36,998 nt of DNA from a virus: the IMG/VR virus record IMGVR_UViG_3300043219_000413; one strand, written 5' to 3'. The notes under the pieces are model-generated. The model saw only the letters and a list, made by a program, of their open reading frames with translations, did no database searches and had not been told where the DNA came from. The position numbers were made by a program, and so were the translations under genes. Below, one piece after another: positions 3,828 through 29,490 of the stretch (its first letter is position 1; the number at the start of each line of letters is the position of its first letter).

Positions 3828-3962
3828 CTAAATCACCCTGTTTTTTATTTTTTGTCCTTTTAATTTTAAACCTGGCTCTCTCTTCTCACTAATACTTATC
3901 TGTTTTTTCGTGTCGACACATCTGTGTTTTTTGATGCGCGTCTTTGTTTTTTGGAAAATTTA

Positions 3963-4457
3963 ATGAACATAATAATTGAATACAAAGGCCACTCAACTGT
4001 TGAAGGCTTTTCGGACAATCGTGTCATTAAGCAGAGCAAAAAAAACAGAGACAAGATCGTTGAGTTACAAGACGAAATGATGAGGATGAAACAAACGCTA
4101 GATCTATTTCCGCTGATTCATCATTTCGCGCCTGGCGTCTATGCCAGAGAGATGTCTCTGCCCGCAGGTCATACCATCATTGGAAAAATCCACAAACATG
4201 CTCACCTCAATATCGTCTCAAAAGGTGTTGTTGTTGTATCAACAGAAGAAGGCTCAAAGGAGCTAAAAGCGCCCTGTGTTTTTACTTCTTACGCCGGAAC
4301 AAAAAGGGCTGTCTTTATAAAAGAAGATGCTGTTTGGATAACGATTCATATCACAGAAAAAACAGATTTAAGAGAAATTGAAAACGAGTTAATCGCGAAA
4401 GATTTTAATGATTTTGCGGGGGAACAAGAAGTGAAAAAAGTAGGAAACAATTTATGA
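3963..4457 (+). CDS. Cupin-fold-like protein (164 aa from ATG 3963; ORF is open from 3924)
   Basis: His-rich beta-barrel-like core GHTIIGKIHKHAHLNIVSKGVVVV resembles cupin metal-site motifs. Start is uncertain. Confidence 0.45.
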   Translation: MNIIIEYKGHSTVEGFSDNRVIKQSKKNRDKIVELQDEMMRMKQTLDLFPLIHHFAPGVYAREMSLPAGHTIIGKIHKHAHLNIVSKGVVVVSTEEGSKELKAPCVFTSYAGTKRAVFIKEDAVWITIHITEKTDLREIENELIAKDFNDFAGEQEVKKVGNNL

Positions 4458-5626
4458 CCTGGGGAGTAGCGGCGGTTGTCGGTACTATAGCCGCACCGAT
4501 TATTGGTGGTTATATGGGGGCGCAAGGTGCAGAGGGCGCAGCCGAGACATCAGCGGCCTCAACTGATCGAGCGACACAGTTGCAACAGCAGATGTACCTG
4601 CAAGGTCGAAGTGATTTACAACCGTGGATGAATGTTGCTACAGGTGAACCACAATACAATCGAATTTATGATCCCGAACCACCCAGGGCTGGAAGTCCAG
4701 AGGATCTTGTTGCTTTTAGTGAGTTTGTAACTGCACAGGCACGAGGTGAAGTTGATGCGCAGGGTTATGCTTTAAATAATCTTGGCGCGAGAGAAGTTAC
4801 TGGTTATGGAGAAGGTGGTGCTCTCGGTCAGTTGGCTGGGTATGGTCGCAGTCAGGTTGCGCCTGGTGAATATATTCCTGAGTCAGCGATTCCCGAATAT
4901 GATCCGCGCTCAGCTATTCAGGGCTTTGACGTTACAGGAGACCAACCTGCCTATGGTCGTTTAACTGATATCACTCAAGATCCATCTTATCAATTTAGAA
5001 AAGCAGAACAAGATAGATCAATTAATCGAAATATGGCTGGCATGGGCAAGTTGATGTCAGGTAATCGTCTTGAGGAATTGATGGCCCGAAGTGGTGATTT
5101 AGCTTCACAGGAATATGGAAATGCTTACCAGCGAAATATTCAGGACTATGAGATAGGTCGAGGCCGAGAGGCAACAGGTTATGCGCGAGACTTGACGGGT
5201 TTTGAGCAAAATCGGTTGGCCGAAGAGTCACGTTATGGTCGAGATATTACTGCATACAATGCGGCGTCCCAGAGGGAAGCACTTGGTTACGGTCGTGGTG
5301 TAGATGCCTATGGCCGCGCCTATGGAGAGGAGGGTGATTATTTAAACCGACTTTCCAATCTATCAAATGTTGGGCAGACCACTGCAACCAACATGGCAGG
5401 TATGGGAGCGAATGCCGCAAATACAATGGGCGCTAACATCATAGCTGGTGGTGGTGCCCGTGCAGCGGGACAGTTGGGCCAAACAGCTGCATGGACAGGT
5501 GCATTAGGTGATCTGACTTCGCTAGGAACACAGTATTTTATGAATCAACCATCACAGCAATCTTATACGACAGCACCTGGTTATGGCGGCACATCCATAA
5601 GAGGGTGGGACGCTTACGGGGCTTAA
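4454..5626 (+). CDS. Internal virion / ejection protein with N-terminal transmembrane segment, Gly/Tyr/Arg-rich (390 aa)
   Basis: ATGA overlap with the upstream gene. N-terminus WGVAAVVGTIAAPIIGGYMGAQG is hydrophobic. Internal repeats of type Y(G/A)R(D/G)xx(A/G)(Y/F). Position after the fibre gene matches podovirus internal proteins. Confidence 0.55.
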   Translation: MTWGVAAVVGTIAAPIIGGYMGAQGAEGAAETSAASTDRATQLQQQMYLQGRSDLQPWMNVATGEPQYNRIYDPEPPRAGSPEDLVAFSEFVTAQARGEVDAQGYALNNLGAREVTGYGEGGALGQLAGYGRSQVAPGEYIPESAIPEYDPRSAIQGFDVTGDQPAYGRLTDITQDPSYQFRKAEQDRSINRNMAGMGKLMSGNRLEELMARSGDLASQEYGNAYQRNIQDYEIGRGREATGYARDLTGFEQNRLAEESRYGRDITAYNAASQREALGYGRGVDAYGRAYGEEGDYLNRLSNLSNVGQTTATNMAGMGANAANTMGANIIAGGGARAAGQLGQTAAWTGALGDLTSLGTQYFMNQPSQQSYTTAPGYGGTSIRGWDAYGA

Positions 5627-5627
5627 T

Positions 5628-6857
5628 ATGGCGCTAAATCAACTCATTGCCCAAGGCGGGCGAAACATTAAATCACCTGTTCAGCGTTACATGGAAACGC
5701 GAGCGCAAATGAATAAGGAACAACAAAATCGTTTAGCTCAGGAATCAACGCGCCAGGGAATGGCTGCACAAAGGCAACAGATGGGAGTGCAGCAACAACA
5801 ACTCGCTATGCAGCAACAAAAGCAAAAAGCTGAAATGGGAACAGCTTATGCTGAGTCGATTACACCCATAATTTCAGGGATTAATCGACTGCCTGAAACG
5901 GAAAGGCAATCAGCGTGGTCTCAATCGATGCCTCGAATAGAGCAAGTGGCTCAGCAATACAATATTCCGTTAGCGCCACAGATGGAACAGTGGAATCAGC
6001 AAAGAGCTGATGCGCTTATAGCTCAACATGGTGTCCCGTTAGTTGCCCCGCAAATGAGGACAGTTTTAAAAGGCAATGAAAAAGTAAATCAGGAATGGAA
6101 CGAAAAGACTGGAAGATGGAAGGAGGTCGGTCGAGGTGTTTCAACTCAAATAACGGCTGCACCTGGAGAGTTGACTAAGCAGGCTGTTACAAGTTTACAA
6201 AAACAGTTAACAAAAAACCTGTTGTCGAAAGATAAAATAACAACTGGCATTAATTTTATTATGAAAAACCAGAATCTATTCGATTTAGGTTCACGCATGT
6301 CAGCAGGTGTTGGAAACGCAATGGAGTTTATCGGAATAGATGCGCCCGAGTATCTAAAGAAAGAGGTCGAGGGGATGGCTGACCTCAAGACTTATACACT
6401 CAACATCGCTAATGGTATAAGGAAAGAAACCACAGGCGCGGCATCCTCTTACAAGGAGTTGGATAAGTTTATTTATCCGCTGGTTGCTGTTGCGACTGAT
6501 GGTAAAACGCGAGCGATAAAACGGATGCAGGCGCTTACGCAATTTAACGAGTTAACTACTGTTCGATTAAATCAATTGCTAAACGATGGTTATAAGGTTA
6601 TTTCAAAACAGGGCGATAAAACGATGAGAGTTAAATCGCCAGATGGAAAAGTAATTGCCGTCGATAAATCCTTTCCATTATCGAGCATTCCCTCGTATGA
6701 CGAGCGAAAAGGTCAGCTTCTTTCCGCTATGGCTCAGGGAAAAAAACCAGGTGACTTTTCAGAGCAGCAACGAATCGACATGTTCAATGAAGTACAAAAT
6801 GCAATGACACAAGAAGGATACAATACTGATGTCTCTCGCGCAGGCTGGAGACAATAG
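5628..6857 (+). CDS. Internal virion / ejection protein, Gln-rich coiled-coil N-terminus (409 aa)
   Basis: Long ORF starting 1 nt after the upstream stop. Contains a QQQQLAMQQQKQK tract. Call rests on position in the ejection-protein block. Confidence 0.5.
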   Translation: MALNQLIAQGGRNIKSPVQRYMETRAQMNKEQQNRLAQESTRQGMAAQRQQMGVQQQQLAMQQQKQKAEMGTAYAESITPIISGINRLPETERQSAWSQSMPRIEQVAQQYNIPLAPQMEQWNQQRADALIAQHGVPLVAPQMRTVLKGNEKVNQEWNEKTGRWKEVGRGVSTQITAAPGELTKQAVTSLQKQLTKNLLSKDKITTGINFIMKNQNLFDLGSRMSAGVGNAMEFIGIDAPEYLKKEVEGMADLKTYTLNIANGIRKETTGAASSYKELDKFIYPLVAVATDGKTRAIKRMQALTQFNELTTVRLNQLLNDGYKVISKQGDKTMRVKSPDGKVIAVDKSFPLSSIPSYDERKGQLLSAMAQGKKPGDFSEQQRIDMFNEVQNAMTQEGYNTDVSRAGWRQ

Positions 6858-17951: not shown

Positions 17952-18139
17952 GACGTTTGCCCTCTTTGTCTTAGTTTTTCAATATAGTCAGTTAGATCGT
18001 CTGGGTGTATTCGATCCGAACGTGACGTCGTAGCTAATCTCACGACATTTAGATCACCGTTAATAACAGCGCGTCTTAATGTTTTTTCTGAGCAACCGAG
18101 ATATTCGGCGGCTTCAGCGAACGTTTTTAGAAATGCCAT
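17834..18139 (-). CDS. xis: Excisionase-type (MerR-like winged HTH) DNA-binding protein (101 aa)
   Basis: FAEAAEYLGCSEKTLRRAVINGDLNVVRL....RIHPDDLTDYI is typical of the excisionase-family HTH. Lies immediately upstream of int and overlaps its first 118 nt in another frame. Confidence 0.6.
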   Translation of the reverse strand: MAFLKTFAEAAEYLGCSEKTLRRAVINGDLNVVRLATTSRSDRIHPDDLTDYIEKLRQRGQTSCQKQNSQLGPEEIHSISTFRTKEKILDQLLATRSGRRT

Positions 18140-23136: not shown

Positions 23137-23436
23137 ATGCTCAAAACACCACCATTTCGATCCAGGACATATCTCGATTACATTTCACGCTTGCCTTGTT
23201 GTGTTACTGGCCGCGAGGGAGACCGCAACGATCCGCATCATATAAAAGGGCGGGGGTATGGCGGCAGCGAAAAATGCTCTGATCTTTTTTGTATTCCAAT
23301 AAGTCATGAACTGCATCAGGAATTGCACCAGATAGGCTGGAAAAGCTTTGAAGAGAAATACAATGTATGCCAGATTCTTGTTGTTTTGAAGACAATTCAA
23401 AAGGCTTTTGCTGAGGGGGTTTTAAGTGAATCCTGA
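23137..23436 (+). CDS. DUF968 / Ref-like HNH-family protein (99 aa; ORF is open from 23110)
   Basis: YLDYISRLPCCVTG.....DPHHIKGRGYGGSEKCSDLFCIPISHELHQELH matches the DUF968 pattern. AGGGGGA RBS precedes ATG 23137. Confidence 0.55.
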   Translation: MLKTPPFRSRTYLDYISRLPCCVTGREGDRNDPHHIKGRGYGGSEKCSDLFCIPISHELHQELHQIGWKSFEEKYNVCQILVVLKTIQKAFAEGVLSES

Positions 23437-23971
23437 ACTTTTGCGGCTACTTAATCCGAAAACAGCCCGGCTGGATGGGGTAAATAGAGGTTTGCCGATG
23501 ATAACGACGGATGATATTAATTCTGCATGTGCAGGCGCTGATCAGATCGGTTTGGATCTGCTTTTGTCTAAAGTCTGTGACGACCGGGCAGCTCAACACA
23601 GGGCTTTTTATAGTCTGTATCAGGAAGTCGTTCAATTAGCTGTCGATAAACACTGGAAAATAAGGGAAAAAGGACAAGAGAAGATCCGCAGTTTAACGCA
23701 ATTGATTCTCTTTGAACTGACTGCTGCGCCTCGCTGCCCTAAATGCAATGGAACTAAATTTAATAAGCGATTGAGGCCTTGTCGATCTTGCAATGGCACC
23801 GGTTTTTATAAGATAAGAGATGCTCAGCGCGCCAGAGCATTAGGGATAAACTCCAGCACCTGGAACAGAGTCTGGGCTTATCGTTACGCTGAGGTATTGT
23901 CGTTAATTTTGAATCATGAGACTAATGCGCTTAAGAGTATTGGTCAAAAACTAAAGCGTGACTTGAGTTAA
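23426..23971 (+). CDS. Q: Late-gene antiterminator Q-like protein (181 aa), GTG start
   Basis: Zinc finger CPKCNGT-x10-CRSCNGTG followed by ARALGINSSTWNRVWAYRY..L...E..A, as in lambdoid Q proteins. Last gene of the rightward early operon. Confidence 0.6.
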   Translation: MNPELLRLLNPKTARLDGVNRGLPMITTDDINSACAGADQIGLDLLLSKVCDDRAAQHRAFYSLYQEVVQLAVDKHWKIREKGQEKIRSLTQLILFELTAAPRCPKCNGTKFNKRLRPCRSCNGTGFYKIRDAQRARALGINSSTWNRVWAYRYAEVLSLILNHETNALKSIGQKLKRDLS

Positions 23972-24046: not shown

Positions 24047-24075
24047 AGCCCGCAAGTTAATGCGGGCTTTTTTTA
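24047..24075 (+). terminator. Strong rho-independent terminator 76 nt downstream of Q
   Basis: agcccgca-agttaa-tgcgggct followed by T8. Confidence 0.8.
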
Positions 24076-24273
24076 TGATTTTTTTTGCATTGGGCGTAGT
24101 AAGCACTTTAAAAAGCTTATTTCTCTATCAGGCATAGGTCTAAATGACACGTTACTTGTGGGTTTTAGCCAACTATCCAGGGTATTTTCGGGCAATTCCA
24201 TGATGATAGCTGTTTTTTTTCTGGTTAAACCGTAGTCTTTCATTAGTTGCCGAAGTGTTTCAGGGTTACTCAT
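24073..24273 (-). CDS. Small HTH protein (66 aa), last gene of the opposite-strand island
   Basis: LTRKKTAIIMELPENTLDSWL HTH-like segment. AGGA RBS. The 12-bp palindrome gtcttgcaagac (24365-24376) lies upstream. The overlapping plus-strand ORF 24038-24235 was rejected. Confidence 0.5.
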   Translation of the reverse strand: MSNPETLRQLMKDYGLTRKKTAIIMELPENTLDSWLKPTSNVSFRPMPDREISFLKCLLRPMQKKS

Positions 24274-24471
24274 TCTCGATTCCTTTAAATCGTTGATATG
24301 TAATACGCTTTGTAAGTGGATTAGCTGTATTCTACTTCAGGTCATAATGTGTCACAATACACAGGTCTTGCAAGACAGCCCGCCTTTCTGAGTTTGCCCT
24401 CTTAAGGTGGGTTTTTTTTTGCCTGCCAAGTAAGACGCTGATGATTAAAACAGCTAACTATCAGCGCGTTA

Positions 24472-25095
24472 CTAACTGGAAAAGACATGGCCATCAACAA
24501 ACGCATAATCCATGAATAATTCATAAGTGAACTGTTTCCAGTCGAAATATTTGCTTGTGTCCATACCACATCCGTCGGCGTAGTTTTCGGCAAATGACTC
24601 CTCGCTGTCATGCTCCCCCTGGTAGCAGTCTTCAAAATCTGACTGAGTAGCATATTCCTGGCCGCGATTAGATACATAAGCCGTCCAGGCGTCGCCGTGT
24701 TCCGCCAGTTGTTCGGCTAACTCGGAGACTACCTGAAGGCTTGTATATTCGCCTACGTCGATTCCATTGGTGTCGTGAATCGCAAACTCTTCCGCCGTGA
24801 CGGTTTGTCGCAGATTGTCAGAGTCGCACCCAGGACAAGTTTGTTTAGCAGGATTGTCCCAGCCGTTAATGTCTGACAGTAGACGCCCGTGCAAAACAGA
24901 AACGGTTGCATAATGTTCTATATGTCCGCAATTGTTACACACAGTACAGGGGATGTTTGATTCTGGTGATTCAAGTAACAGGTTATAAACTTCGTTATTT
25001 AACTCTTCCAGGGTTTGGTTCGCGTCGATCCACTTGCCGCGTAAAAAACCTGCATTGTATGCCGCTAAGTCTGCAATATAAATTTGAGTTTCCAT
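24472..25095 (-). CDS. ardA: ArdA-family anti-restriction protein with a Cys4 insertion (207 aa)
   Basis: METQIYIADLAAYNAGFLRGKWID, AEEFAIHDTNG..VGEYTS and the acidic C-terminal half parallel Tn916 ArdA (MQVYIANLGKYNEGELVGAWF, YEEYAIHDYE..VDEYTS). An extra segment carries CTVCNNC...CPGC. Confidence 0.75.
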   Translation of the reverse strand: METQIYIADLAAYNAGFLRGKWIDANQTLEELNNEVYNLLLESPESNIPCTVCNNCGHIEHYATVSVLHGRLLSDINGWDNPAKQTCPGCDSDNLRQTVTAEEFAIHDTNGIDVGEYTSLQVVSELAEQLAEHGDAWTAYVSNRGQEYATQSDFEDCYQGEHDSEESFAENYADGCGMDTSKYFDWKQFTYELFMDYAFVDGHVFSS

Positions 25096-25173
25096 AGTCG
25101 TTTGCCCTCTTTATGGTGCCTGGCAGTATTGCCATCAAAACCGGCTACAAGGTAACCGGCTTTAATTGCTACA

Positions 25174-25650
25174 CTAATCCGCGTACTCGTTAATGGTGTA
25201 ACCCATAGTCAAAGCGGCTTCTGTTAAAGCCTGTAAGTAATTAGTGTCACTGGAATAGTTGCCAGAAAAACAAGTATTACGCGGTACAATTCGACGCAAG
25301 ACTTCAAGTCTAAAATTATTAGATGTCGCCAGCATTGATTTTTTAAGTGGATAAAACAAAAGCTCACTTGTCTTTAATTGATCAACATAAAAAGCGGCCT
25401 GGATCTGTATGGTATTTTCTGGACTATTACCGCTAGAGACACGGTTAGTTTTTTGACCATAGTATTTACTGGCTGTCTTTAATTGCTTAAGAAAATAATT
25501 AAGCCTTTCAATACCGGTTTTTATTTTATAGTTACCCTGGCGTCCATTATCTAATTCAAAGGGGATGTTTAAAAAATCAGGTAAACTATTTTTACCCCCT
25601 AGTGTGTTGATGTGATTTTTTACTGTTAGCTCAGTTATTAATGTGTTCAT
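25174..25650 (-). CDS. Hypothetical protein (158 aa) in the anti-restriction operon
   Basis: ORF between ardC and ardA on the same strand. No recognisable motif. Confidence 0.55.
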   Translation of the reverse strand: MNTLITELTVKNHINTLGGKNSLPDFLNIPFELDNGRQGNYKIKTGIERLNYFLKQLKTASKYYGQKTNRVSSGNSPENTIQIQAAFYVDQLKTSELLFYPLKKSMLATSNNFRLEVLRRIVPRNTCFSGNYSSDTNYLQALTEAALTMGYTINEYAD

Positions 25651-25660
25651 GACTTATGCC

Positions 25661-25912
25661 TTAATATGATTGACGCGTTAGAAGAGCGGATAAGTTTTCA
25701 AGCTTTTCTAGCTCAATGGCTTCTATTGGTGTTAATTCATCGAAGCCAATAGGATCAACCGCTTCAAAGTAGGACTGGCACAAAAGCAGATCAATATCGA
25801 TTACTTGATCATCATTAACCAGGGTGATTTTGTCGCCGTGCATACTCTGAGCGGTTCCGGTGATCTGTGAGCCATCATTTAAAATGGCGGTCATGAGTTT
25901 AGAATGTTGCAT
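25661..25912 (-). CDS. Hypothetical small acidic protein (83 aa from ATG 25912; ORF is open to 25945)
   Basis: The conserved AGAGGGCAAAC element lies 3 nt upstream of ATG 25912, which argues for this start. Confidence 0.5.
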   Translation of the reverse strand: MQHSKLMTAILNDGSQITGTAQSMHGDKITLVNDDQVIDIDLLLCQSYFEAVDPIGFDELTPIEAIELEKLENLSALLTRQSY

Positions 25913-25982
25913 AAAGTTTGCCCTCTTTACTGGCTTAATTGCCACATAAACCCCCTTAACAAAACAGGGGCTTAAATTGCTA

Positions 25983-26840
25983 TTAAGCAGCGGCTTTCAG
26001 TTCAATGGTTTTGTGTTTGCCCTGGATGTAATCAGCGGCTCTTTGTGCTTTCGATGCGGCCTGGATGATTAACTTACTGTCTTGCCTTAATCGCTGAGAC
26101 CAGCTCTTGATATATGCGGCGCTATTATCAATTGTGGTTTGCTCTATCCCAGCAACACCGCAAAGCATCGCCGCGCTGAATTCGGCGACTAATTCTTCTT
26201 TGCTGTATTCGTGACTGCCAAAATGCGCATTGTTACTGGTTAAGGTCTCCCGGTTCAGTCGATTAATATGGCCGGTACTGTGTGACAGTTCATGAAACAG
26301 CGTTGAATAATAACCAGCGTCATTGATGAACAACTCAGGGGCTGGTATTTCGATTCGATCCTGGCTCGGCGAGTAAAACGCTTGCGGCCCATTCTTAATG
26401 CCTGGTTTGTCAGCAAACCCTTTAACTAGATTCTCACAAGTTTCTATAGGGGAATGAGTCCGGCTCGATTCTGTTTTTTGCCAGTCGATGCCCTCTGTTT
26501 GTTCAAGGTTAAATACCGTGTAATAACGAAGGATAGGAATATTTTTATCTTCACCTGTATTTCTATCTTTATAAGGTGACATCTTAAAAAAGATAATCAT
26601 TTGACCTTTTTCGCCCTTTTTAACATTACCTTTTAATTGTTTCGCTTGCTTGTAAGTTACCCAGTGCGGGCACGAATAACCGGCGCTATTTAATAGAAAA
26701 GGATTAATACCGGTGTACGCTTTTTTACTGACAAAATTTTGGATCTCGCCAGAGTTAACCCACGGTTTACGCCAGGGGATAACACCAGCTTTTAGTTGAT
26801 CAAGAATTTGATTGGTAATGATCTCGTATACTTTACTCAT
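25983..26840 (-). CDS. ardC: ArdC-like anti-restriction protein: ssDNA-binding N-domain plus HExxH metalloprotease domain (285 aa)
   Basis: ILDQLKAGVIPWRKPW...YTGINPFLL (ArdC N-domain) and YYSTLFHELSHSTGH..RLNR...EELVAEFSAAMLC (zincin domain). Confidence 0.8.
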   Translation of the reverse strand: MSKVYEIITNQILDQLKAGVIPWRKPWVNSGEIQNFVSKKAYTGINPFLLNSAGYSCPHWVTYKQAKQLKGNVKKGEKGQMIIFFKMSPYKDRNTGEDKNIPILRYYTVFNLEQTEGIDWQKTESSRTHSPIETCENLVKGFADKPGIKNGPQAFYSPSQDRIEIPAPELFINDAGYYSTLFHELSHSTGHINRLNRETLTSNNAHFGSHEYSKEELVAEFSAAMLCGVAGIEQTTIDNSAAYIKSWSQRLRQDSKLIIQAASKAQRAADYIQGKHKTIELKAAA

Positions 26841-26909
26841 AAGTTTGCCCTCTTATTGATATTGATTTTGCTTGAATTCACTTACTAAATAAATTCGAAG
26901 CCTGGTTAA

Positions 26910-27101
26910 TTAAAATTCGTATGTCACGCCTTTGTGCTCAATACACGGGCAAGCTTCTTGCTCTATATGCTCAAGTAATTCATCAAAAGCATATTCCGTG
27001 TCATATCCGCATTTAGTCATTAAAGAGCGAACAAACTCTTCTGATAATTCGGTTTGTTTTGTGCTTGTTTTGGTGTGTATATAACATTTTAAAGTTTTCA
27101 T
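26910..27101 (-). CDS. Small acidic protein (63 aa from ATG 27101; ORF is open to 27131), first gene of the island operon
   Basis: An AGAGGGCAAA element lies 2 nt upstream of ATG 27101. A promoter lies directly upstream. Confidence 0.5.
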   Translation of the reverse strand: MKTLKCYIHTKTSTKQTELSEEFVRSLMTKCGYDTEYAFDELLEHIEQEACPCIEHKGVTYEF

Positions 27102-27123
27102 AATTTGCCCTCTATGGTTATAA

Positions 27124-27151
27124 ATTATCATAGGTACTCAGTACCTGTCAA
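27124..27151 (-). promoter_or_regulatory. Strong sigma70-type promoter of the anti-restriction operon: TTGACA-16-GATAAT, with palindromic operator in the spacer
   Basis: On the minus strand, -35 TTGACA is at 27146-27151 and -10 GATAAT at 27124-27129. Palindrome aggtac-tca-gtacct is at 27132-27146. Confidence 0.65.
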
Positions 27152-27183: not shown

Positions 27184-27666
27184 ATGAACGATAAAACAGC
27201 GCCAGGTAAGCAAGCCGTCGAATTGACGGAAAACACTATAGATAAAGGGATTAGACTAAAACCGGAAGAGATTGACGAGCGATACATTAACGCTTATTTA
27301 GAGCATCCTGAAAGAAGTAAAACATTTGCTTTGATCGCCGCAGGTCATCCTAATCCTACAGCGCAGCGCGCCTATCAAATACACGAGCGCCTACTGAGTC
27401 AAATAGATAAGGGCTTAGATAAACTTATCTTGCAAGATGCTGCATTAGGTCGATCTGTTTTAGTTGACCTGGCACTTAATAGTGACAGTGACGCGGTAAG
27501 AGGATCAAGCGCCAGCAAATTAATGGAGTACGCCGGAAAACAAAAACCCGACCGCCTTATTGTGGAGAGTCGAGAGCCGGAAGATATAGACGCCGAGATT
27601 GCTGCAATACAAAAACGCATACTTATCGCGCAAGGTGAAGAGGTGCCAGATAGTGAGCTGCATTAA
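27184..27666 (+). CDS. terS: Terminase small subunit (160 aa)
   Basis: YINAYLEHPERSKTFALIAAGHPNPTAQRAYQIHERL and VLVDLALNSDSDAVRGSSASKLMEYAG resemble Terminase_2-type small subunits. First gene of the late/structural direction. Confidence 0.6.
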   Translation: MNDKTAPGKQAVELTENTIDKGIRLKPEEIDERYINAYLEHPERSKTFALIAAGHPNPTAQRAYQIHERLLSQIDKGLDKLILQDAALGRSVLVDLALNSDSDAVRGSSASKLMEYAGKQKPDRLIVESREPEDIDAEIAAIQKRILIAQGEEVPDSELH

Positions 27667-27707
27667 TAAGAAGGAAAGAACATTACTACCAGGAAGAGCT
27701 TAAAACG

Positions 27708-27740
27708 TTAGTTAACGTTTAGTTGACGTCTAGTTGACGT
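27708..27740. repeat. Three tandem 11-bp repeats (T/C)TAGTT(A/G)ACGT
   Basis: ttagttaacgt / ttagttgacgt / ctagttgacgt, read directly, 42 nt after the terS stop. Confidence 0.9.
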
Positions 27741-28130
27741 TAATTGAAATGTAGAGCGTCACCCTGAATGACTATCTTTGTTACTCACTCACACATCTTT
27801 TTTCTACCAGGTGACGGGGTACTGATAAAAGCCTGGGCATTAACCAAAACAATGGTCAGATTTATCAACAAACAAACAAACATCAGCTATTTATCGAGCC
27901 TTTTACACAAAAAACAACACATAAAGCGCTGATAGCCTTCTATAGCGGCATTTAAAACGGATTGATAGTCCGTTTGATGCCCTGCAACCGGGGGCCGCGT
28001 GGGTTTCTCGCGCGGCGCGATGGGCGTCGACATAGCTCGTTCTATCATTTCGGGGAAATTAGGCAAATAAGAAATCCTTGTTTTTCAACAGCTTAATTCC
28101 CATCCTCTACTACAGATATCCCGGTGCTAT

Positions 28131-28502
28131 ATGAACAATCGACTGCACAACGCTACAAACGGATATCAGGGAAAGGCTAAACGGGTGCTGTGTATATGCA
28201 GTGCCGGACTCTTGAGAAGCCCCACCGCCGCAAACGTGTTTCACAGGGAGTTTGGGTTTAATACCCGCGCCGCTGGGTTGGAGTCGAGCTTCGCTTTGAT
28301 ACCGGTTGATGATGTTTTATTGCACTGGGCCGATGAGATTGTGTGCATGGAGGCATACCAGAAAGAGGCGTTAGAAAAGCGCACAGACACACCGATCATT
28401 AATCTGGGTATTCAAGACAGCTTTGAGTATATGGATGAAACGTTACAGACAACGATAAAAGAGCGGTATTTGAACGGGAAAAAGAAAACAGCAAAACAGT
28501 AA
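28131..28502 (+). CDS. Low-molecular-weight phosphotyrosine phosphatase / ArsC-fold-like protein (123 aa)
   Basis: RVLCICSAGLLRSPTAANVF matches the LMW-PTP P-loop CX5R(S) (compare LFVCLGNICRSPMAE). No clear SD. Confidence 0.55.
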   Translation: MNNRLHNATNGYQGKAKRVLCICSAGLLRSPTAANVFHREFGFNTRAAGLESSFALIPVDDVLLHWADEIVCMEAYQKEALEKRTDTPIINLGIQDSFEYMDETLQTTIKERYLNGKKKTAKQ

Positions 28503-28585
28503 CTTAACTAATCCCTTACAGCAATACCGTTATCTGTTTGGGTCAACGTTATCGCGAGTTACTTTGGTTTTGCAGGATTTTCTGA

Positions 28586-28614
28586 TTGATATGCTGTTAA
28601 GCATAACTTAACAT
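28586..28614 (+). promoter_or_regulatory. Candidate moron promoter TTGATA-17-TAACAT with a perfect TTAAG-N5-CTTAA palindrome in the spacer
   Basis: -35 at 28586-28591, -10 at 28609-28614, palindrome ttaagcataacttaa at 28597-28611. Confidence 0.5.
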
Positions 28615-28642
28615 ATACCCTTTAATATTAAGAGGTATTGCT

Positions 28643-28996
28643 ATGCTGAGATCTAAAAATAGACGAGAAGAAAACCGTAATTATTTTCACTATGGTGTGA
28701 TGACATCTCAACTGTATGACCTCTCTTTTGCTCAGGAGCAGGTTATGAAGATAGTGAAACGCCTCAGAGCCAAACCGAACAGGAGCGTCGTGGATATACT
28801 GGATGCGTATGACCAGATCGATATCTTGATGTTTGAGCCGAGGAACAATGTAACGATCCATAAGAGTTACGAGGAGATAATGCAAACGTTTGACTATGTT
28901 TATCCTCGATTAACGCGCCGAAATCGCCGACACAAGGTATACACCACGCGCCAGTGTTTGAATTTTCTGTCACCGATATGGACATCATTTAGTTAA
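28643..28996 (+). CDS. Hypothetical basic protein (117 aa)
   Basis: AAGAGG RBS lies 8 nt upstream. Promoter upstream and terminator downstream. Antisense ORFs 28628-28885 and 28764-28988 were rejected. Confidence 0.5.
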   Translation: MLRSKNRREENRNYFHYGVMTSQLYDLSFAQEQVMKIVKRLRAKPNRSVVDILDAYDQIDILMFEPRNNVTIHKSYEEIMQTFDYVYPRLTRRNRRHKVYTTRQCLNFLSPIWTSFS

Positions 28997-29097
28997 CCTG
29001 TAAAGGCGCAACGACACTTCGGCTGCCTGTTTAAGTTATCTAGACAGGTGGCGCTCGCGCAAAAAAAAAGAAAAAAACCAGTTCGCCATTCGACAGG

Positions 29098-29132
29098 TCG
29101 GATTAATGTACTTAATTCGATCCTGTTTTTTT
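29098..29132 (+). terminator. Candidate rho-independent terminator
   Basis: tcggattaa-tgtac-ttaattcga (9-bp stem including one G-T pair), then tcctg and T7. Confidence 0.5.
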
Positions 29133-29157
29133 AAGAAATAGAAAAGAAGAGAATCCA

Positions 29158-29382
29158 ATGAAAAAGAAAAAGATACCTATTATCCTGGCAGGCATCATCT
29201 TACTGACAACCTTAATGCTACCCGGTATTTCTGTTTCTGCTCAGGAGGAGAAATGCGAAACACAAGATAGAGATCGAGCGATAAAACTTGCCGCTGAAAA
29301 ACGTCGAGACGCTCTCAAAGCATGTCTTGATAAAGAATGTATCGAAAAAATTATTTATGAGTTCTATAACCCTAATAGATAA
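29158..29382 (+). CDS. Small secreted or membrane-anchored protein (74 aa)
   Basis: N-terminus MKKKKIPIILAGIILLTTLMLPGISVSA is a signal peptide or anchor, followed by a charged helical part with 3 Cys. Confidence 0.5.
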   Translation: MKKKKIPIILAGIILLTTLMLPGISVSAQEEKCETQDRDRAIKLAAEKRRDALKACLDKECIEKIIYEFYNPNR

Positions 29383-29490
29383 GCGCTGCTTATAATTCTT
29401 TATTTCATTATCTTCTATCATTACCCCTAGCTTTTCTACACCTTCTCTTAGCTACAACGCTCCCAGTCATTATATGTAATAGGCACAAAT

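What the first reader, a model, noticed from the sequence alone, without database searches (positions are those of the whole stretch)
24073..27151. Opposite-strand anti-restriction island between Q and terS, with three unknown genes as anti-defence candidates
Six minus-strand genes form a compact block inserted between the Q terminator and terS:
- 26910-27101, 63 aa, acidic.
- ArdC-like.
- 25661-25912, 83 aa, acidic.
- 25174-25650, 158 aa.
- ArdA-like.
- A 66-aa HTH.

The block is driven by a near-consensus promoter (TTGACA-16-GATAAT). Its spacer is filled by the palindrome aggtac-tca-gtacct.

ArdA (DNA mimic against type I R-M) and ArdC are established anti-restriction families. The three unannotatable proteins co-transcribed with them are natural candidates for new anti-defence functions.

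The terminal small HTH with its own palindrome (gtcttgcaagac, 24365-24376) resembles the acr-aca arrangement, in which an HTH autoregulates an anti-defence operon.
Basis: partly seen in the sequence, partly recalled or inferred. Interest (0 to 1): 0.72.

Follow-up and report, generated by a model that had tools for sequence, protein, structure and literature searches.

The report
Aca1-like-controlled phage anti-restriction gene island
A temperate phage carries a variable block of early genes holding two known restriction-enzyme blockers (ArdA, ArdC) and three unknown proteins, apparently switched off by a small repressor related to the one that controls anti-CRISPR genes, so the unknowns are good but untested anti-defence candidates.

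Summary
Six minus-strand genes lie at 24073-27101, behind TTGACA-16-GATAAT with the palindrome AGGTACtcaGTACCT in its spacer.

- **Known genes.** ArdA (Pfam 3e-26) and ArdC (8e-53 to R388 ArdC, HExxH kept) are solid.
- **Regulator.** The 66-aa HTH protein is a remote Aca1 homologue (best PDB hits; hhalign 95.6%). The promoter palindrome, GGTAC-N3-GTACC, has the geometry of the JBD30 Aca1 operator, GGCAC-N3-GTGCC. Across related phages its half-site co-varies with the recognition helix. The operator is therefore this palindrome, not gtcttgcaagac.
- **Variable region.** Eight gene orders occupy the same Q-to-terS slot in related metagenomic phages. orf83 and the regulator are always present, and at least one of ArdA or ArdC.
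- **Unknowns.** All three are under purifying selection and match no family. orf83 is very acidic with an Sm-like predicted barrel. Anti-defence function is association only.
- **Extra finding.** Nearly every island gene, and the integrase, carries the same motif AGAGGGCAAAC before its ATG. A further copy sits in the loop of a conserved opposite-strand terminator, so that strand's RNA is complementary to all these start regions. A shared antisense shut-off is possible but unproven.

Verdict: a new variant of the acr-aca / anti-defence-island kind.

The parts
27124..27151 (-). Island promoter: -35 TTGACA (27151-27146) and -10 GATAAT (27129-27124), 16-nt spacer.
   Evidence: Scores 11/12. The -35 hexamer (TTGACA or a one-base variant) is kept at this position in all nine related variants; the -10 is variable and poor in L002. 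This holds although synonymous sites are saturated.
27132..27146 (.). Putative Aca1-type operator, A-GGTAC-TCA-GTACC-T, filling the promoter spacer.
   Evidence: Unique in the window and unique in each related locus. The half-site changes symmetrically to GATAC/GTATC in L001 and L007, together with HTH66 residue 30 changing N/D to V. Its geometry matches JBD30 Aca1 IR2, GGCAC-AAT-GTGCC (PMC8633003).
26910..27101 (-). orf63, 63 aa, pI 5.0, 4 Cys; function unknown; variable cargo.
   Evidence: Only two homologue clusters among 5.8e9. dN/dS is 0.29 against L061. Relatives carry a 26-29-aa hydrophobic peptide and/or an unrelated orf64 at this position.
25983..26840 (-). ArdC: N-terminal ssDNA-binding domain plus zincin metallopeptidase (HELSH).
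   Evidence: Pfam ArdcN 2.6e-31 and MPTase-PolyVal 7.5e-35. PHROG_7245 2.6e-75. R388 ArdC (6i89) 8e-53 over 4-284. Present in 4 of 8 island architectures.
25661..25912 (-). orf83: very acidic (pI 4.1) small protein with a five-strand beta-barrel and a C-terminal acidic helix. Present in every island variant.
   Evidence: 17 homologue clusters, all unannotated. AF2 pLDDT 80. All of the top 50 Foldseek PDB hits are Hfq, with E about 1e-3, TM 0.5-0.7 and rmsd 1.0-1.8 A over 44-52 aligned residues. hhalign finds no match to Hfq or Rof. There are no conserved basic residues. pN is 0.19-0.31 with pS saturated.
25174..25650 (-). orf158: basic (pI 9.3) protein of unknown function, 10 nt after orf83. 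It is the only island gene besides the aca-like gene that lacks the shared start-region motif in this window.
   Evidence: 8 clusters among 5.8e9. An HMM search of 1.84e9 representatives gives 14 hits. The C-terminal ~80 aa (FYPLKKS..A.SN.FR...GYTI.EY) also occurs as standalone 88-129-aa proteins with no significant Pfam or PHROG match. AF2 pLDDT is 62 and there is no fold hit. Present in 5 of 8 architectures.
24472..25095 (-). ArdA-like DNA mimic, 207 aa, pI 4.1, with a ~45-aa CxxC...CxxC insertion.
   Evidence: PF07275 3e-26 at 93 bits. PHROG_2059 4.7e-20. 37 D/E against 8 K/R. Zinc-ribbon hit TIGR02605 at 3.5e-4 over residues 79-109. Present in 6 of 8 architectures.
24379..24420 (+). Conserved hairpin (stem 24379-24386 / 24404-24411, 17-nt loop 24387-24403) followed by T9. 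It is an intrinsic terminator for the Q-to-terS direction. Its loop is the exact complement of the shared start-region motif.
   Evidence: Plus-strand RNA folds at -25.9 kcal/mol (z -2.8); island-sense RNA folds at -18.2 (z +0.2). L001 and L006 show the same asymmetry. Four stem pairs show compensatory changes. Three A.C mismatches on the island strand are G.U pairs on the plus strand. The T-run is present in all variants except L007.
24365..24376 (.). Second palindrome, GTCTTGCAAGAC, 7 nt upstream of the -35 of the aca promoter.
   Evidence: Conserved as RTCTTGCAAGAY. In L007 it is GTCTGGCCAGAC, so palindromy is kept. It is unlike the GGTAC operator. Its binding partner is unknown.
24329..24357 (-). 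Internal promoter for the aca-like gene, TTGTGA-17-TAGAAT.
   Evidence: Scores 9/12. Both hexamers keep their positions in six relatives while the spacer varies.
24073..24273 (-). HTH66: Aca1-like helix-turn-helix repressor, last gene of the block.
   Evidence: Profile against PDB: Aca1 7c0g 1.3e-3, 7fa3 1.6e-3, 7vjn 0.014. hhalign 95.6%. Aca1 R59 aligns with invariant R45. Present in all eight architectures.
24047..24068 (+). Terminator after the Q-like gene, 5 nt beyond the HTH66 stop codon.
   Evidence: 8-bp stem with 6 GC pairs, then T7.
27104..27113 (-). Shared start-region motif AGAGGGCAAA(C), copy before orf63. Other copies: 26844-26853 (ArdC), 25917-25926 (orf83), 25101-25110 (ArdA), 24393-24402 (orphan copy in the terminator loop), 17956-17965 (integrase).
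   Evidence: Six exact copies in the window, all on the minus strand. In each related 7-12-kb locus the 9-mer GAGGGCAAA occurs only inside the island and only in island orientation. It lies before nearly every island gene (exceptions are the aca-like gene, L006 orf88 and this window's orf158), plus one orphan copy.

Best explanation
**What it is.** The block is a phage accessory region that works as an anti-defence operon under an Aca1-type autorepressor.

**Proposed sequence of events.**
1. On DNA entry, host sigma-70 RNA polymerase fires the near-consensus promoter at 27151-27124. This is inferred.
2. The mRNA yields ArdA, a DNA mimic that blocks type I restriction-modification enzymes. It also yields ArdC, an ssDNA-binding metalloprotease that counters restriction, and three proteins of unknown function. 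The family memberships are shown; the activities are inferred from the families.
3. The last gene encodes a 66-aa Aca1 homologue, which also has its own weaker promoter. As it accumulates, a dimer binds GGTAC-N3-GTACC in the promoter spacer and shuts the operon off. In a prophage this would keep the operon silent. The homology, the operator geometry and the protein-operator co-variation are shown; binding and repression are inferred.

**Cargo turnover.** Related phages show eight gene orders in the same slot between the Q-like gene and the packaging genes. The promoter, orf83, a conserved terminator hairpin and the regulator are constant.

**The unknowns.**
- orf83 is the best candidate for a new inhibitor. 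It is universal, strongly acidic, has an Sm-like barrel and has no conserved basic residue. It would act as a nucleic-acid or protein decoy.
- orf158 and orf63 are weaker candidates.
For: - **ArdA and ArdC membership:**
- **Aca1 homology of HTH66:**
- **Operator geometry:** 5-bp half-sites with a 3-bp spacer, one base per half-site away from the JBD30 Aca1 IR2 (PMC8633003).
- **Operator position:** Aca operators typically lie inside the core promoter (PMC9410906).
- **Co-variation:**
  - GGTAC half-sites go with N or D at HTH66 residue 30, which aligns with Aca1 R44. This is seen in the window, L002, L006, L008, L011 and L061.
  - GATAC half-sites go with V at that residue, in L001 and L007.
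  - The change in the half-site is symmetric.
- **Uniqueness:** the palindrome occurs once in the window and once in each related locus. It is therefore not a CI/Cro operator.
- **Variable slot with constant frame:**
- **Selection:** all genes are under purifying selection while synonymous sites are saturated. The conserved non-coding elements are therefore selected too.
- **Precedent:** Aca proteins are already reported to control other anti-defence operons (PMC13551039).
Against: - No experiment or transcript data is available. Early expression is assumed.
- The Aca1 match is remote (26% identity). The base-contacting residues R44, R47 and Y48 of Aca1 are not kept (N30, D33, S34), although this is expected for a different half-site.
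- The -10 hexamer is poor in L002.
- No known anti-CRISPR or other characterised inhibitor lies among the unknowns.
- Neither fold search of orf83 returns a hit to a characterised inhibitor; the PDB hits are all Hfq and the viral hits are unannotated.
- orf83 is universal, which is unusual for anti-defence cargo.
- The host is unknown, and no prophage copy was found in 185,579 species genomes. The defence systems the phage faces cannot be named.
Confidence: 0.7

Rival explanations
1. An antisense shut-off acts on top of the Aca-like control. A short plus-strand RNA ends at the conserved terminator (24379-24420). Its loop, 5'-UCUGAGUUUGCCCUCUU, pairs with the shared start region (AAGAGGGCAAAC...) of orf63, ArdC, orf83, ArdA and the integrase. 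This occludes their ribosome-binding sites, so a single RNA silences the whole set. It would act once transcription from the Q side rises.
For: - The motif precedes nearly every island gene in nine phage variants and occurs nowhere else in those loci.
- The orphan copy always sits in the loop of a hairpin with compensatory stem changes.
- That hairpin folds far better as plus-strand RNA: -25.9 against -18.2, -25.5 against -17.5, and -28.2 against -21.5 kcal/mol.
- Three stem positions are G.U on the plus strand but A.C on the island strand, and none shows the reverse.
- A T-run follows the hairpin in all variants except L007.
- Complementarity to the start regions runs 10-14 contiguous nt.
- Loop and motif are invariant although synonymous sites are saturated.
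- The apical loop UUUGCC begins with a YUNR-type UUUG. That point is from my memory of the antisense-RNA literature and was not checked here.
Against: - No convincing conserved promoter for such an RNA was found. The plus-strand -10 candidates are CATAAT, AAGAAT, AATAAT, AAGACT and GAGACT, with weak -35 hexamers (my reading).
- L007 keeps the hairpin but lacks the T-run.
- The motif never varies, so no motif-loop co-variation is available.
- A 17-nt loop with an inner 3-bp stem is not a proven kissing loop.
- No Rfam family matches.
Confidence: 0.27
2. The shared start-region motif is a strong ribosome-binding site (UAAAGAGG plus an A-rich spacer). It doubles as a short homology linker at which cassettes are exchanged between phages. 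The orphan copy is then the right-hand boundary of the array, giving N genes and N+1 motifs. No RNA regulation is involved.
For: - Non-homologous genes occupy equivalent positions directly after the motif.
- orf63 and the leader peptide of L001 share their first codons (ATGAAAAC) immediately after the motif.
- These phages encode a Sak-type single-strand annealing protein (PF06378 in L002).
- Each cassette also ends in its own hairpin (my reading).
Against: - 11-13 nt is very short for homologous exchange.
- It does not explain why the orphan copy is held in a loop flanked by co-varying stems.
- It does not explain why the motif stays invariant at saturated divergence, or why the integrase shares it.
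Confidence: 0.35
3. The universal genes (orf83, possibly with orf158) are not anti-defence. They serve a core phage function, such as controlling host transcription or termination, or the switch to late transcription, which must cross this block in antisense. Only ArdA, ArdC and the truly variable genes are counter-defence cargo.
For: - orf83 is present in 8 of 8 architectures, whereas ArdA, ArdC, orf63 and the others come and go.
- Its predicted fold is Sm-like.
- Rof, a known acidic Sm-like protein, inhibits the Rho termination factor (PMC10491184, abstract).
- The block lies between a Q-like antiterminator and the late genes.
Against: - hhalign finds no similarity to Rof or Hfq, and Pfam ROF does not hit.
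- Constancy is also expected for an inhibitor of a defence that every host strain carries.
- The family is confined to this island.
Confidence: 0.25
4. HTH66 regulates only itself, or an unrelated target, through gtcttgcaagac. The promoter-spacer palindrome is bound by another factor.
For: - gtcttgcaagac is conserved next to the HTH gene's own promoter and stays palindromic in L007.
Against: - Its form (6+6 bp, no spacer) is unlike any Aca1 site.
- The GGTAC-N3-GTACC site matches Aca1 geometry and co-varies with the recognition helix.
- In plus-strand RNA the 3' half of gtcttgcaagac can pair with the U-tract, so part of its conservation may act at the RNA level.
Confidence: 0.12

Closest known systems
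acr-aca1 operons of Pseudomonas phage JBD30 and relatives (Aca1 autorepressor; PMC8633003, PMC9410906, PMC13551039)
   Same: - A small HTH protein homologous to Aca1 is encoded last in a counter-defence operon.
- The operon has a strong sigma-70 promoter with an inverted repeat inside the core promoter.
- The half-sites are 5 bp with a 3-bp spacer, GGTAC against GGCAC.
- The loop-34 arginine (Aca1 R59) is kept.
   Different: - The cargo is anti-restriction (ArdA, ArdC) plus unknowns, not known anti-CRISPRs.
- Identity is only 26%, and the recognition-helix contacts are replaced.
- The 5' UTR is about 16 nt, so the Aca1 RNA hairpin described in 2026 has no room.
- The aca-like gene has its own extra promoter.
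- The operon is 3 kb with five cargo genes.
Anti-defence islands in the leading regions of conjugative plasmids (Samuel et al. 2024, PMC11541004)
   Same: - ArdA-type genes cluster with many small unknown genes in a single orientation.
- Expression is thought to come first after entry.
- ArdC and DUF2958, seen in relative L007, are to my knowledge typical conjugative-plasmid genes. The searched text of PMC11541004 mentions neither.
   Different: - This is a dsDNA phage, so there is no ssDNA (Frpo) promoter.
- Control is by a dedicated Aca-like repressor.
Phage accessory regions: variable genes at fixed genome positions, used to find counter-defence genes (bioRxiv 10.1101/2023.04.06.535777)
   Same: Conserved flanks (Q-like gene and packaging genes) enclose gene content that differs between close relatives.
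   Different: Here the slot has its own conserved regulatory frame: promoter and operator, a uniform start-region motif, a terminator and a repressor.
T7 gene 0.3 (Ocr) and the early-entering region of T7-like phages (PMC12455610)
   Same: A DNA-mimic inhibitor of type I restriction is expressed from a strong early host-type promoter.
   Different: - The phage is temperate, with a P22-type portal and headful-type terminase.
- That the island enters the cell first is only my inference, based on its position just upstream of the packaging genes.
Antisense or small RNAs that use C-rich loops to mask Shine-Dalgarno sequences, and the T4 'PeSL' shuffling cassettes (both recalled from memory, not checked here)
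   Same: - A loop containing CCCUCU is complementary to the ribosome-binding sites of several mRNAs.
- Repeated regulatory sequences sit at cassette boundaries.
   Different: - No transcript is shown here.
- All targets lie within 3 kb of the putative RNA, apart from the integrase.

Membership tests
ArdA (PF07275) | Profile match above the curated threshold. | tested here: met
   93.3 bits against a cut-off of 27, E 3e-26, residues 5-200. PHROG_2059 4.7e-20.
ArdA (PF07275) | Strongly acidic DNA-mimic composition. | tested here: met
   pI 4.1, with 37 D/E against 8 K/R.
ArdA (PF07275) | Canonical length of about 165 aa without insertions. | tested here: not met
   207 aa, with a ~45-aa CxxC...CxxC insertion (TIGR02605, 3.5e-4). 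phmmer finds no PDB match at E <= 0.01.
ArdA (PF07275) | Inhibits type I restriction-modification enzymes. | not testable with these tools
   Needs plating or in-vitro assays.
ArdC | N-terminal ssDNA-binding ArdcN domain plus a C-terminal zincin peptidase with HExxH. | tested here: met
   ArdcN 2.6e-31 and MPTase-PolyVal 7.5e-35. HELSH aligns with HEATH of R388 ArdC; 6i89 8e-53 over 4-284.
Aca1 (anti-CRISPR-associated repressor) | Sequence homology to Aca1 over the HTH and the C-terminal dimer/loop region. | tested here: met
   Best PDB hits 7c0g 1.3e-3 and 7fa3 1.6e-3. hhalign 95.6%, 53 columns, 26% identity.
Aca1 (anti-CRISPR-associated repressor) | Inverted-repeat operator inside the core promoter of its own operon. 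| tested here: met
   GGTAC-N3-GTACC lies in the spacer of TTGACA-16-GATAAT. It is conserved in nine variants and co-varies with the recognition helix. Binding itself is not tested.
Aca1 (anti-CRISPR-associated repressor) | Base-contact residues R44, V45, R47, Y48 and R59 of JBD30 Aca1. | tested here: not met
   Only R59 is kept, as invariant R45. The others align with N30, T31, D33 and S34. The paper notes that bacterial Aca1 homologues also vary at these positions.
Aca1 (anti-CRISPR-associated repressor) | Co-encoded with a known anti-CRISPR gene. | not testable with these tools
   No anti-CRISPR library is at hand. The unknowns match nothing in Pfam, PHROGs, NCBIfam or PADLOC.
Aca1 (anti-CRISPR-associated repressor) | Conserved RNA hairpin directly after the transcription start in the 5' UTR (PMC13551039). 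| tested here: not met
   There are only 22 nt from the -10 to the ATG of orf63, so an approximately 20-nt hairpin has no room.
Hfq / Sm-like proteins (for orf83) | Sm fold: N-terminal helix plus a bent five-strand sheet. | tested here: inconclusive
   The model has five strands and pLDDT 80. All of the top 50 PDB hits are Hfq, but E is only about 1e-3. The helix is C-terminal, not N-terminal.
Hfq / Sm-like proteins (for orf83) | Sequence-profile similarity and basic or aromatic RNA-binding residues. | tested here: not met
   hhalign probability 0.1% against E. coli Hfq. No Pfam LSM/Hfq hit. pI 4.1 and no conserved K or R.
Intrinsic (Rho-independent) terminator (24379-24420, plus strand) | GC-rich stem followed by a U-run. 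| tested here: met
   8-bp stem plus T9. Strand-specific stability and compensatory stem changes. The 17-nt loop is atypical, and the scan (loop 3-8 nt) missed it for that reason.
Integron-type gene cassettes (considered for the repeated motif) | attC sites with GTTRRRY / RYYYAAC core sequences and an integron integrase. | tested here: not met
   The motif AGAGGGCAAAC and its complement GTTTGCCCTCT do not fit either core (my reading). The integrase scores far below the integron-integrase cut-off, 20.7 against 265 bits.

The most novel reading that the evidence does not exclude
The island genes and the integrase form a small translational regulon, defined by an identical 11-13-nt start-region 'address', AAGAGGGCAAAC. 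A short RNA from the opposite (late-direction) strand controls the whole set. The loop of its terminator hairpin is the exact complement of that address. When transcription from the Q side rises, one RNA would mask the ribosome-binding sites of every counter-defence gene at once. Any cassette that recombines in behind the motif would come under this control automatically.
Probability: 0.25. Interest if true: 0.8.

Novelty: new variant of a known kind. Interest (0 to 1): 0.6.

Why it matters
- **Wider reach for Aca1-type control.** If the reading is right, it extends from anti-CRISPR genes to a classic anti-restriction operon in an unrelated, uncultured phage lineage. This gives a sequence-level way to find more such operons: an Aca1-like gene plus GGYAC-N3-GTRCC inside a strong promoter.
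- **Three concrete proteins to test.** orf83 comes first. It is present in every variant, strongly acidic and of a fold not yet linked to counter-defence.
- **A separate point of interest.** The uniform start-region motif and its complement in a conserved terminator loop form an unusually clean pattern. It points either to a one-RNA shut-off of a whole gene island or to a built-in cassette-exchange site. Either would be a useful design principle and is directly testable.

Tried and rejected
- **orf83 as an Hfq-like RNA binder that reads the shared motif.** Rejected. It has pI 4.1 and no conserved basic residue. hhalign to Hfq and Rof is null.
- **Fold assignment for orf158.** The model is poor (pLDDT 62) and the Foldseek hits are meaningless. 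Profile searches of the PDB return only noise.
- **Annotated context for orf83 and orf158.** A standalone relative of orf158 (P0034) was included. tblastn against 50,697 phage and 72,556 plasmid records gives no match.
- **Host or prophage copies.**
  - An orf83 profile scan and a hairpin DNA pattern in GTDB genomes gave nothing real.
  - The metagenome scan re-found only a known contig.
  - In IMG/VR, 43 of 44 pattern hits were chance 'EGKLK' coding matches.
- **Known RNA families.** Nothing in the block reaches a gathering score. The window has no tRNAs.
- **Close relatives of the block.** Megablast against GenBank phages finds none.
- **Integron-like cassettes.** The core sites do not fit (see the membership test).
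- **Promoter palindrome as a CI/Cro operator.** Rejected, because it occurs only once in the window.
- **A dedicated promoter for the putative antisense RNA.** The -10-like hexamers sit at a fixed distance, but the -35 hexamers are weak and not conserved. This is left open.

Full report
**1. What is in the sequence**

The region 24073-27151 holds six minus-strand ORFs with short gaps:
- orf63, 26910-27101
- a 285-aa ORF, 25983-26840
- orf83, 25661-25912
- orf158, 25174-25650
- a 207-aa ORF, 24472-25095
- a 66-aa ORF, 24073-24273

The 285-aa protein is a full-length ArdC. It matches ArdcN at 2.6e-31 and the zincin MPTase-PolyVal domain at 7.5e-35. It aligns end to end with the crystallised R388 ArdC at 8e-53, and the HExxH motif is present.

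The 207-aa protein is an ArdA. It matches PF07275 at 93 bits, E 3e-26. Its pI is 4.1. It carries a ~45-aa CxxC...CxxC insertion.

The promoter TTGACA-16-GATAAT is at 27151..27124 and scores 11/12. Only two sites in the window reach that score, and shuffles give 1.26, so the score alone proves little. The palindrome AGGTACTCAGTACCT (27132-27146) fills the spacer. It is the only GGTAC-N3-GTACC in the window.

The flanks:
- A Q-like gene lies at 23426-23971 (PHROG_127, 8e-13), followed by a terminator at 24047-24068.
- A 160-aa probable small terminase lies at 27184-27666. It rests on position plus a weak match (7joq, E 0.083).
- The large terminase and a P22-type portal follow.

The phage is novel. 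The block has no megablast match in GenBank phages, and the large terminase is at most 43% identical to any known one.

**2. The block is a conserved variable slot, not an insertion**

Exact-protein look-ups recovered related metagenomic phage contigs. Every one has an opposite-strand block between the same Q-like gene and the same terminase genes. The contents differ, read here from promoter to regulator. 'T' is the conserved terminator hairpin described in section 5, and 'aca' is the HTH66 homologue.

| Source | Gene order |
|---|---|
| window | orf63-ArdC-orf83-orf158-ArdA-T-aca |
| L001 | pep29-orf85-ArdA-orf158-T-aca-orf100 |
| L002-5 | pep29-orf64-ArdC-orf85-orf158-T-aca |
| L006 | pep29-ArdC-orf85-orf88-orf145-orf159-T-aca |
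| L007 | pep26-orf64'-DUF2958-orf83-ArdA-orf102-T-aca |
| L008-12 | (dead pep)-ArdC-orf85-ArdA-T-aca |
| L061 | orf63-orf85-ArdA-orf159-T-aca |
| L062-64 | pep-orf64-orf85-ArdA-T-aca |

- The orf83 family and the HTH protein are present in 8 of 8 architectures.
- ArdA is in 6, orf158 in 5 and ArdC in 4.
- Every variant has ArdA or ArdC.

Synonymous sites between these phages are saturated (pS 0.7-0.9), while pN is 0.09-0.31 for orf83, orf158, HTH66 and ArdA. These ORFs are therefore real genes under purifying selection. Any non-coding sequence that stays identical is itself under selection.

**3. The regulator is an Aca1 homologue, and the operator is the promoter palindrome**

- A profile of seven HTH66 homologues (A4) was searched against all PDB chains. 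Aca1 ranks first (7c0g 1.3e-3, 7fa3 1.6e-3, 7vjn 0.014).
- The alignment spans residues 5-58 of 66, including the non-HTH motif YRPxP...CL.
- hhalign against the Aca1 segment gives 95.6% probability over 53 columns at 26% identity.
- JBD30 Aca1 is a dimer that binds IR2, ATTA-GGCAC-AAT-GTGCC-TAAT. R44, V45, R47 and Y48 of helix 3 and R59 of loop 34 read the half-site (PMC8633003).
- The island palindrome, A-GGTAC-TGA-GTACC-T in island orientation, has the same 5+3+5 geometry. It differs by one base per half-site.
- Aca operators characteristically lie inside the core promoter (PMC9410906), as this one does.
- Aca1 R59 corresponds to the invariant R45 of HTH66.

The half-site and the recognition helix change together:

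| Half-site | HTH66 residue 30 (aligns with Aca1 R44) | Loci |
|---|---|---|
| GGTAC | N or D | window, L002, L006, L008, L011, L061 |
| GATAC...GTATC | V | L001, L007 |

The change in the half-site is symmetric, and the rest of the recognition helix also differs in L001 and L007. The palindrome occurs exactly once in every related locus.

I therefore place the operator at 27132-27146. It has a different form. It lies 7 nt upstream of the -35 of a separate conserved promoter for the HTH gene, TTGTGA-17-TAGAAT, whose hexamers are fixed while the spacer varies. Its binding partner is unknown.

**4. The three unknown proteins**

*orf83*
- It has 17 homologue clusters, all in this type of island. 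None occurs in the phage or plasmid collections.
- Its pI is 4.1, with no conserved Lys or Arg.
- The AlphaFold model (pLDDT 80) shows five strands followed by a C-terminal helix.
- All of the top 50 Foldseek PDB hits are Hfq. E is about 1e-3, TM 0.5-0.7, and rmsd 1.0-1.8 A over 44-52 aligned residues.
- Profile comparison with Hfq or Rof is null. The viral structure library gives nothing annotated.
- I read it as an Sm-like barrel used as an acidic decoy, not an RNA binder.

*orf158*
- It has 8 clusters among 5.8e9.
- An exhaustive HMM search finds 14 proteins. It shows that the C-terminal ~80 residues also exist as standalone 88-129-aa proteins with no significant Pfam or PHROG match.
- The model is poor and has no fold match.

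*orf63*
- It has two clusters only.

None of the three matches Pfam, PHROGs, NCBIfam or PADLOC. Their candidacy as counter-defence genes rests on association with ArdA and ArdC, an Aca-like regulator and a variable slot. That reasoning is used in the field (PMC13551039; PMC11541004), but it is not a test.

**5. An unplanned finding: a uniform start-region motif and its complement in a terminator loop**

- The 10-mer AGAGGGCAAA occurs six times in the window, always on the minus strand. Four copies lie 2-5 nt before the ATG of orf63, ArdC, orf83 and ArdA, and one lies before the integrase (17956-17965). One is an 'orphan' at 24393-24402.
- In each related locus of 7-12 kb the 9-mer occurs only in the island and only in island orientation.
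- It precedes nearly every gene there, including non-homologous cargo, plus one orphan copy. The exceptions are the aca-like gene, L006 orf88 and this window's orf158. Chance expectation is about 0.1 per locus.
- The orphan copy always lies in the loop of a hairpin whose stem changes by compensation: CCCACCTT/AAGGTGGG, CCCGCC/GGCGGG, CCCGCCG/CGGCGGG and GTCCCCT/AGGGGAC.

The hairpin belongs to the opposite strand:
- It is followed by a T-run on the plus strand in all variants except L007.
- The plus-strand RNA folds much better than the island-sense RNA:

| Locus | Plus-strand RNA | Island-sense RNA |
|---|---|---|
| window | -25.9 kcal/mol (z -2.8) | -18.2 kcal/mol (z +0.2) |
| L001 | -25.5 kcal/mol | -17.5 kcal/mol |
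| L006 | -28.2 kcal/mol | -21.5 kcal/mol |

- Three stem positions are A.C mismatches in island sense but G.U pairs in the plus sense.

It is therefore an intrinsic terminator for the Q-to-terS direction, with an unusually long and invariant 17-nt loop. That loop is complementary to the start regions of the island genes over 10-14 nt.

Two explanations remain open:
- A plus-strand RNA that masks all these ribosome-binding sites.
- A strong ribosome-binding site that doubles as a cassette-exchange linker, with the orphan copy as the array's right boundary.

I could not find a convincing conserved promoter for the RNA. Read-through from the Q side is the alternative source. No Rfam family matches.

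**6. Mechanism I commit to**

The block is an early, host-polymerase-driven counter-defence operon that its last gene product turns off.

*Shown*
- Gene identities for ArdA, ArdC and the Aca1-like protein.
- Operator geometry, its uniqueness and its co-variation with the protein.
- The variable-slot behaviour.
- Purifying selection on the genes.

*Inferred*
- The timing of expression.
- DNA binding and repression by HTH66.
- The activities of ArdA and ArdC in the unknown host.
- Any role for the three unknowns.

A further inference concerns late transcription. If it starts near the Q-like gene as in lambdoid phages, it must cross the block in antisense. That would also silence the block late in infection. 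The two plus-strand terminators flanking the aca-like gene would insulate the block before Q acts.

**7. Comparison with what is known, and novelty**

The closest system is the acr-aca1 operon. This block works like one. HTH66 passes the homology and operator tests but fails the test for conserved contact residues and lacks the 5'-UTR hairpin. I therefore call it an Aca1-like regulator of a new subfamily, not an Aca1 proper.

The cargo resembles the anti-defence islands of plasmid leading regions. The overall idea, an anti-defence island with an HTH autorepressor, is known. Four things are new:
- The lineage.
- Anti-restriction cargo under Aca1-type control.
- A universal Sm-like acidic protein.
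- The uniform start-region motif paired with a complementary terminator loop.

Interest is moderate to good (0.6). It would be higher if the antisense regulon, or an activity for orf83, were confirmed.

Noticed in passing
window 27104-27113, 26844-26853, 25917-25926, 25101-25110, 24393-24402, 17956-17965 (all minus strand): An identical start-region motif, (A/T)AGAGGGCAAAC, lies 2-5 nt before the ATG of four island genes and of the integrase, with one orphan copy. In related phages it precedes nearly every island gene and occurs nowhere else in those loci, although synonymous sites are saturated.
   Followed up: yes
window 24379-24420 (plus strand): A conserved intrinsic terminator points in the late-gene direction, between ArdA and the aca-like gene. 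Its invariant 17-nt loop is the exact complement of the shared start-region motif, and its stem shows compensatory changes. L007 keeps the hairpin but has no T-run.
   Followed up: partly
window 24472-25095 (ArdA residues ~48-95): ArdA carries a ~45-aa insertion with CxxC...CxxC, a zinc-ribbon-like signature (TIGR02605, 3.5e-4). The ArdA homologues in the relatives are also long (207-214 aa). I do not know of this feature in characterised ArdA proteins.
   Followed up: partly
window 27667-29490: There is a second variable slot between the probable small terminase and the large terminase. Here it holds a 123-aa ORF (28131-28502) with a CSAGLLRS (CX5R-S) phosphatase/ArsC-like signature but no Pfam hit. 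It also holds a 117-aa ORF (28643-28996). Relatives have different small ORFs or none at this position.
   Followed up: no
L001 4884, L002 2404, L006 3837, L007 3788 (first ORF after the island promoter): The first ORF after the promoter is a 26-29-aa very hydrophobic peptide (for example MKTINYYLIKIIGYLICFCALCITF...). In L008 and L011 it is inactivated (ATG to ATA). In this window it is replaced by orf63, which shares its first codons.
   Followed up: partly
L007 5521-5829 and 4156-4479: One relative carries a 102-aa protein matching the N-terminus of the PADLOC candidate defence protein PDC-S36 (1.2e-24). It also carries a DUF2958 protein (4.6e-29), a domain that to my knowledge is typical of conjugative plasmids.
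   Followed up: no
L060 (GenBank MW202801.1, Manatee Spring podovirus), locus 3880-5920: An unrelated phage has an analogous opposite-strand block led by ArdC (51% identical) with three unknown genes. Its promoter has TTGACA followed by the palindrome TAACCTAAgcgATTAGGTTA. It has no shared start-region motif and no homologues of orf83 or orf158.
   Followed up: partly
window 24365-24376: The palindrome GTCTTGCAAGAC lies upstream of the aca promoter. It is conserved, and it stays palindromic in L007 as GTCTGGCCAGAC. In plus-strand RNA its 3' half can pair with the terminator U-tract. An identical TCTTGCAAGA inside the terminase ORF (27428-27437) looks coincidental.
   Followed up: partly
L001 9859-10800, L007 9127-9987, L062 4953-5846: Several relatives encode a C5 DNA methyltransferase (PF00145) in the early region upstream of the Q-like gene. 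This is a second, independent route around restriction. I did not check whether this window has one.
   Followed up: no
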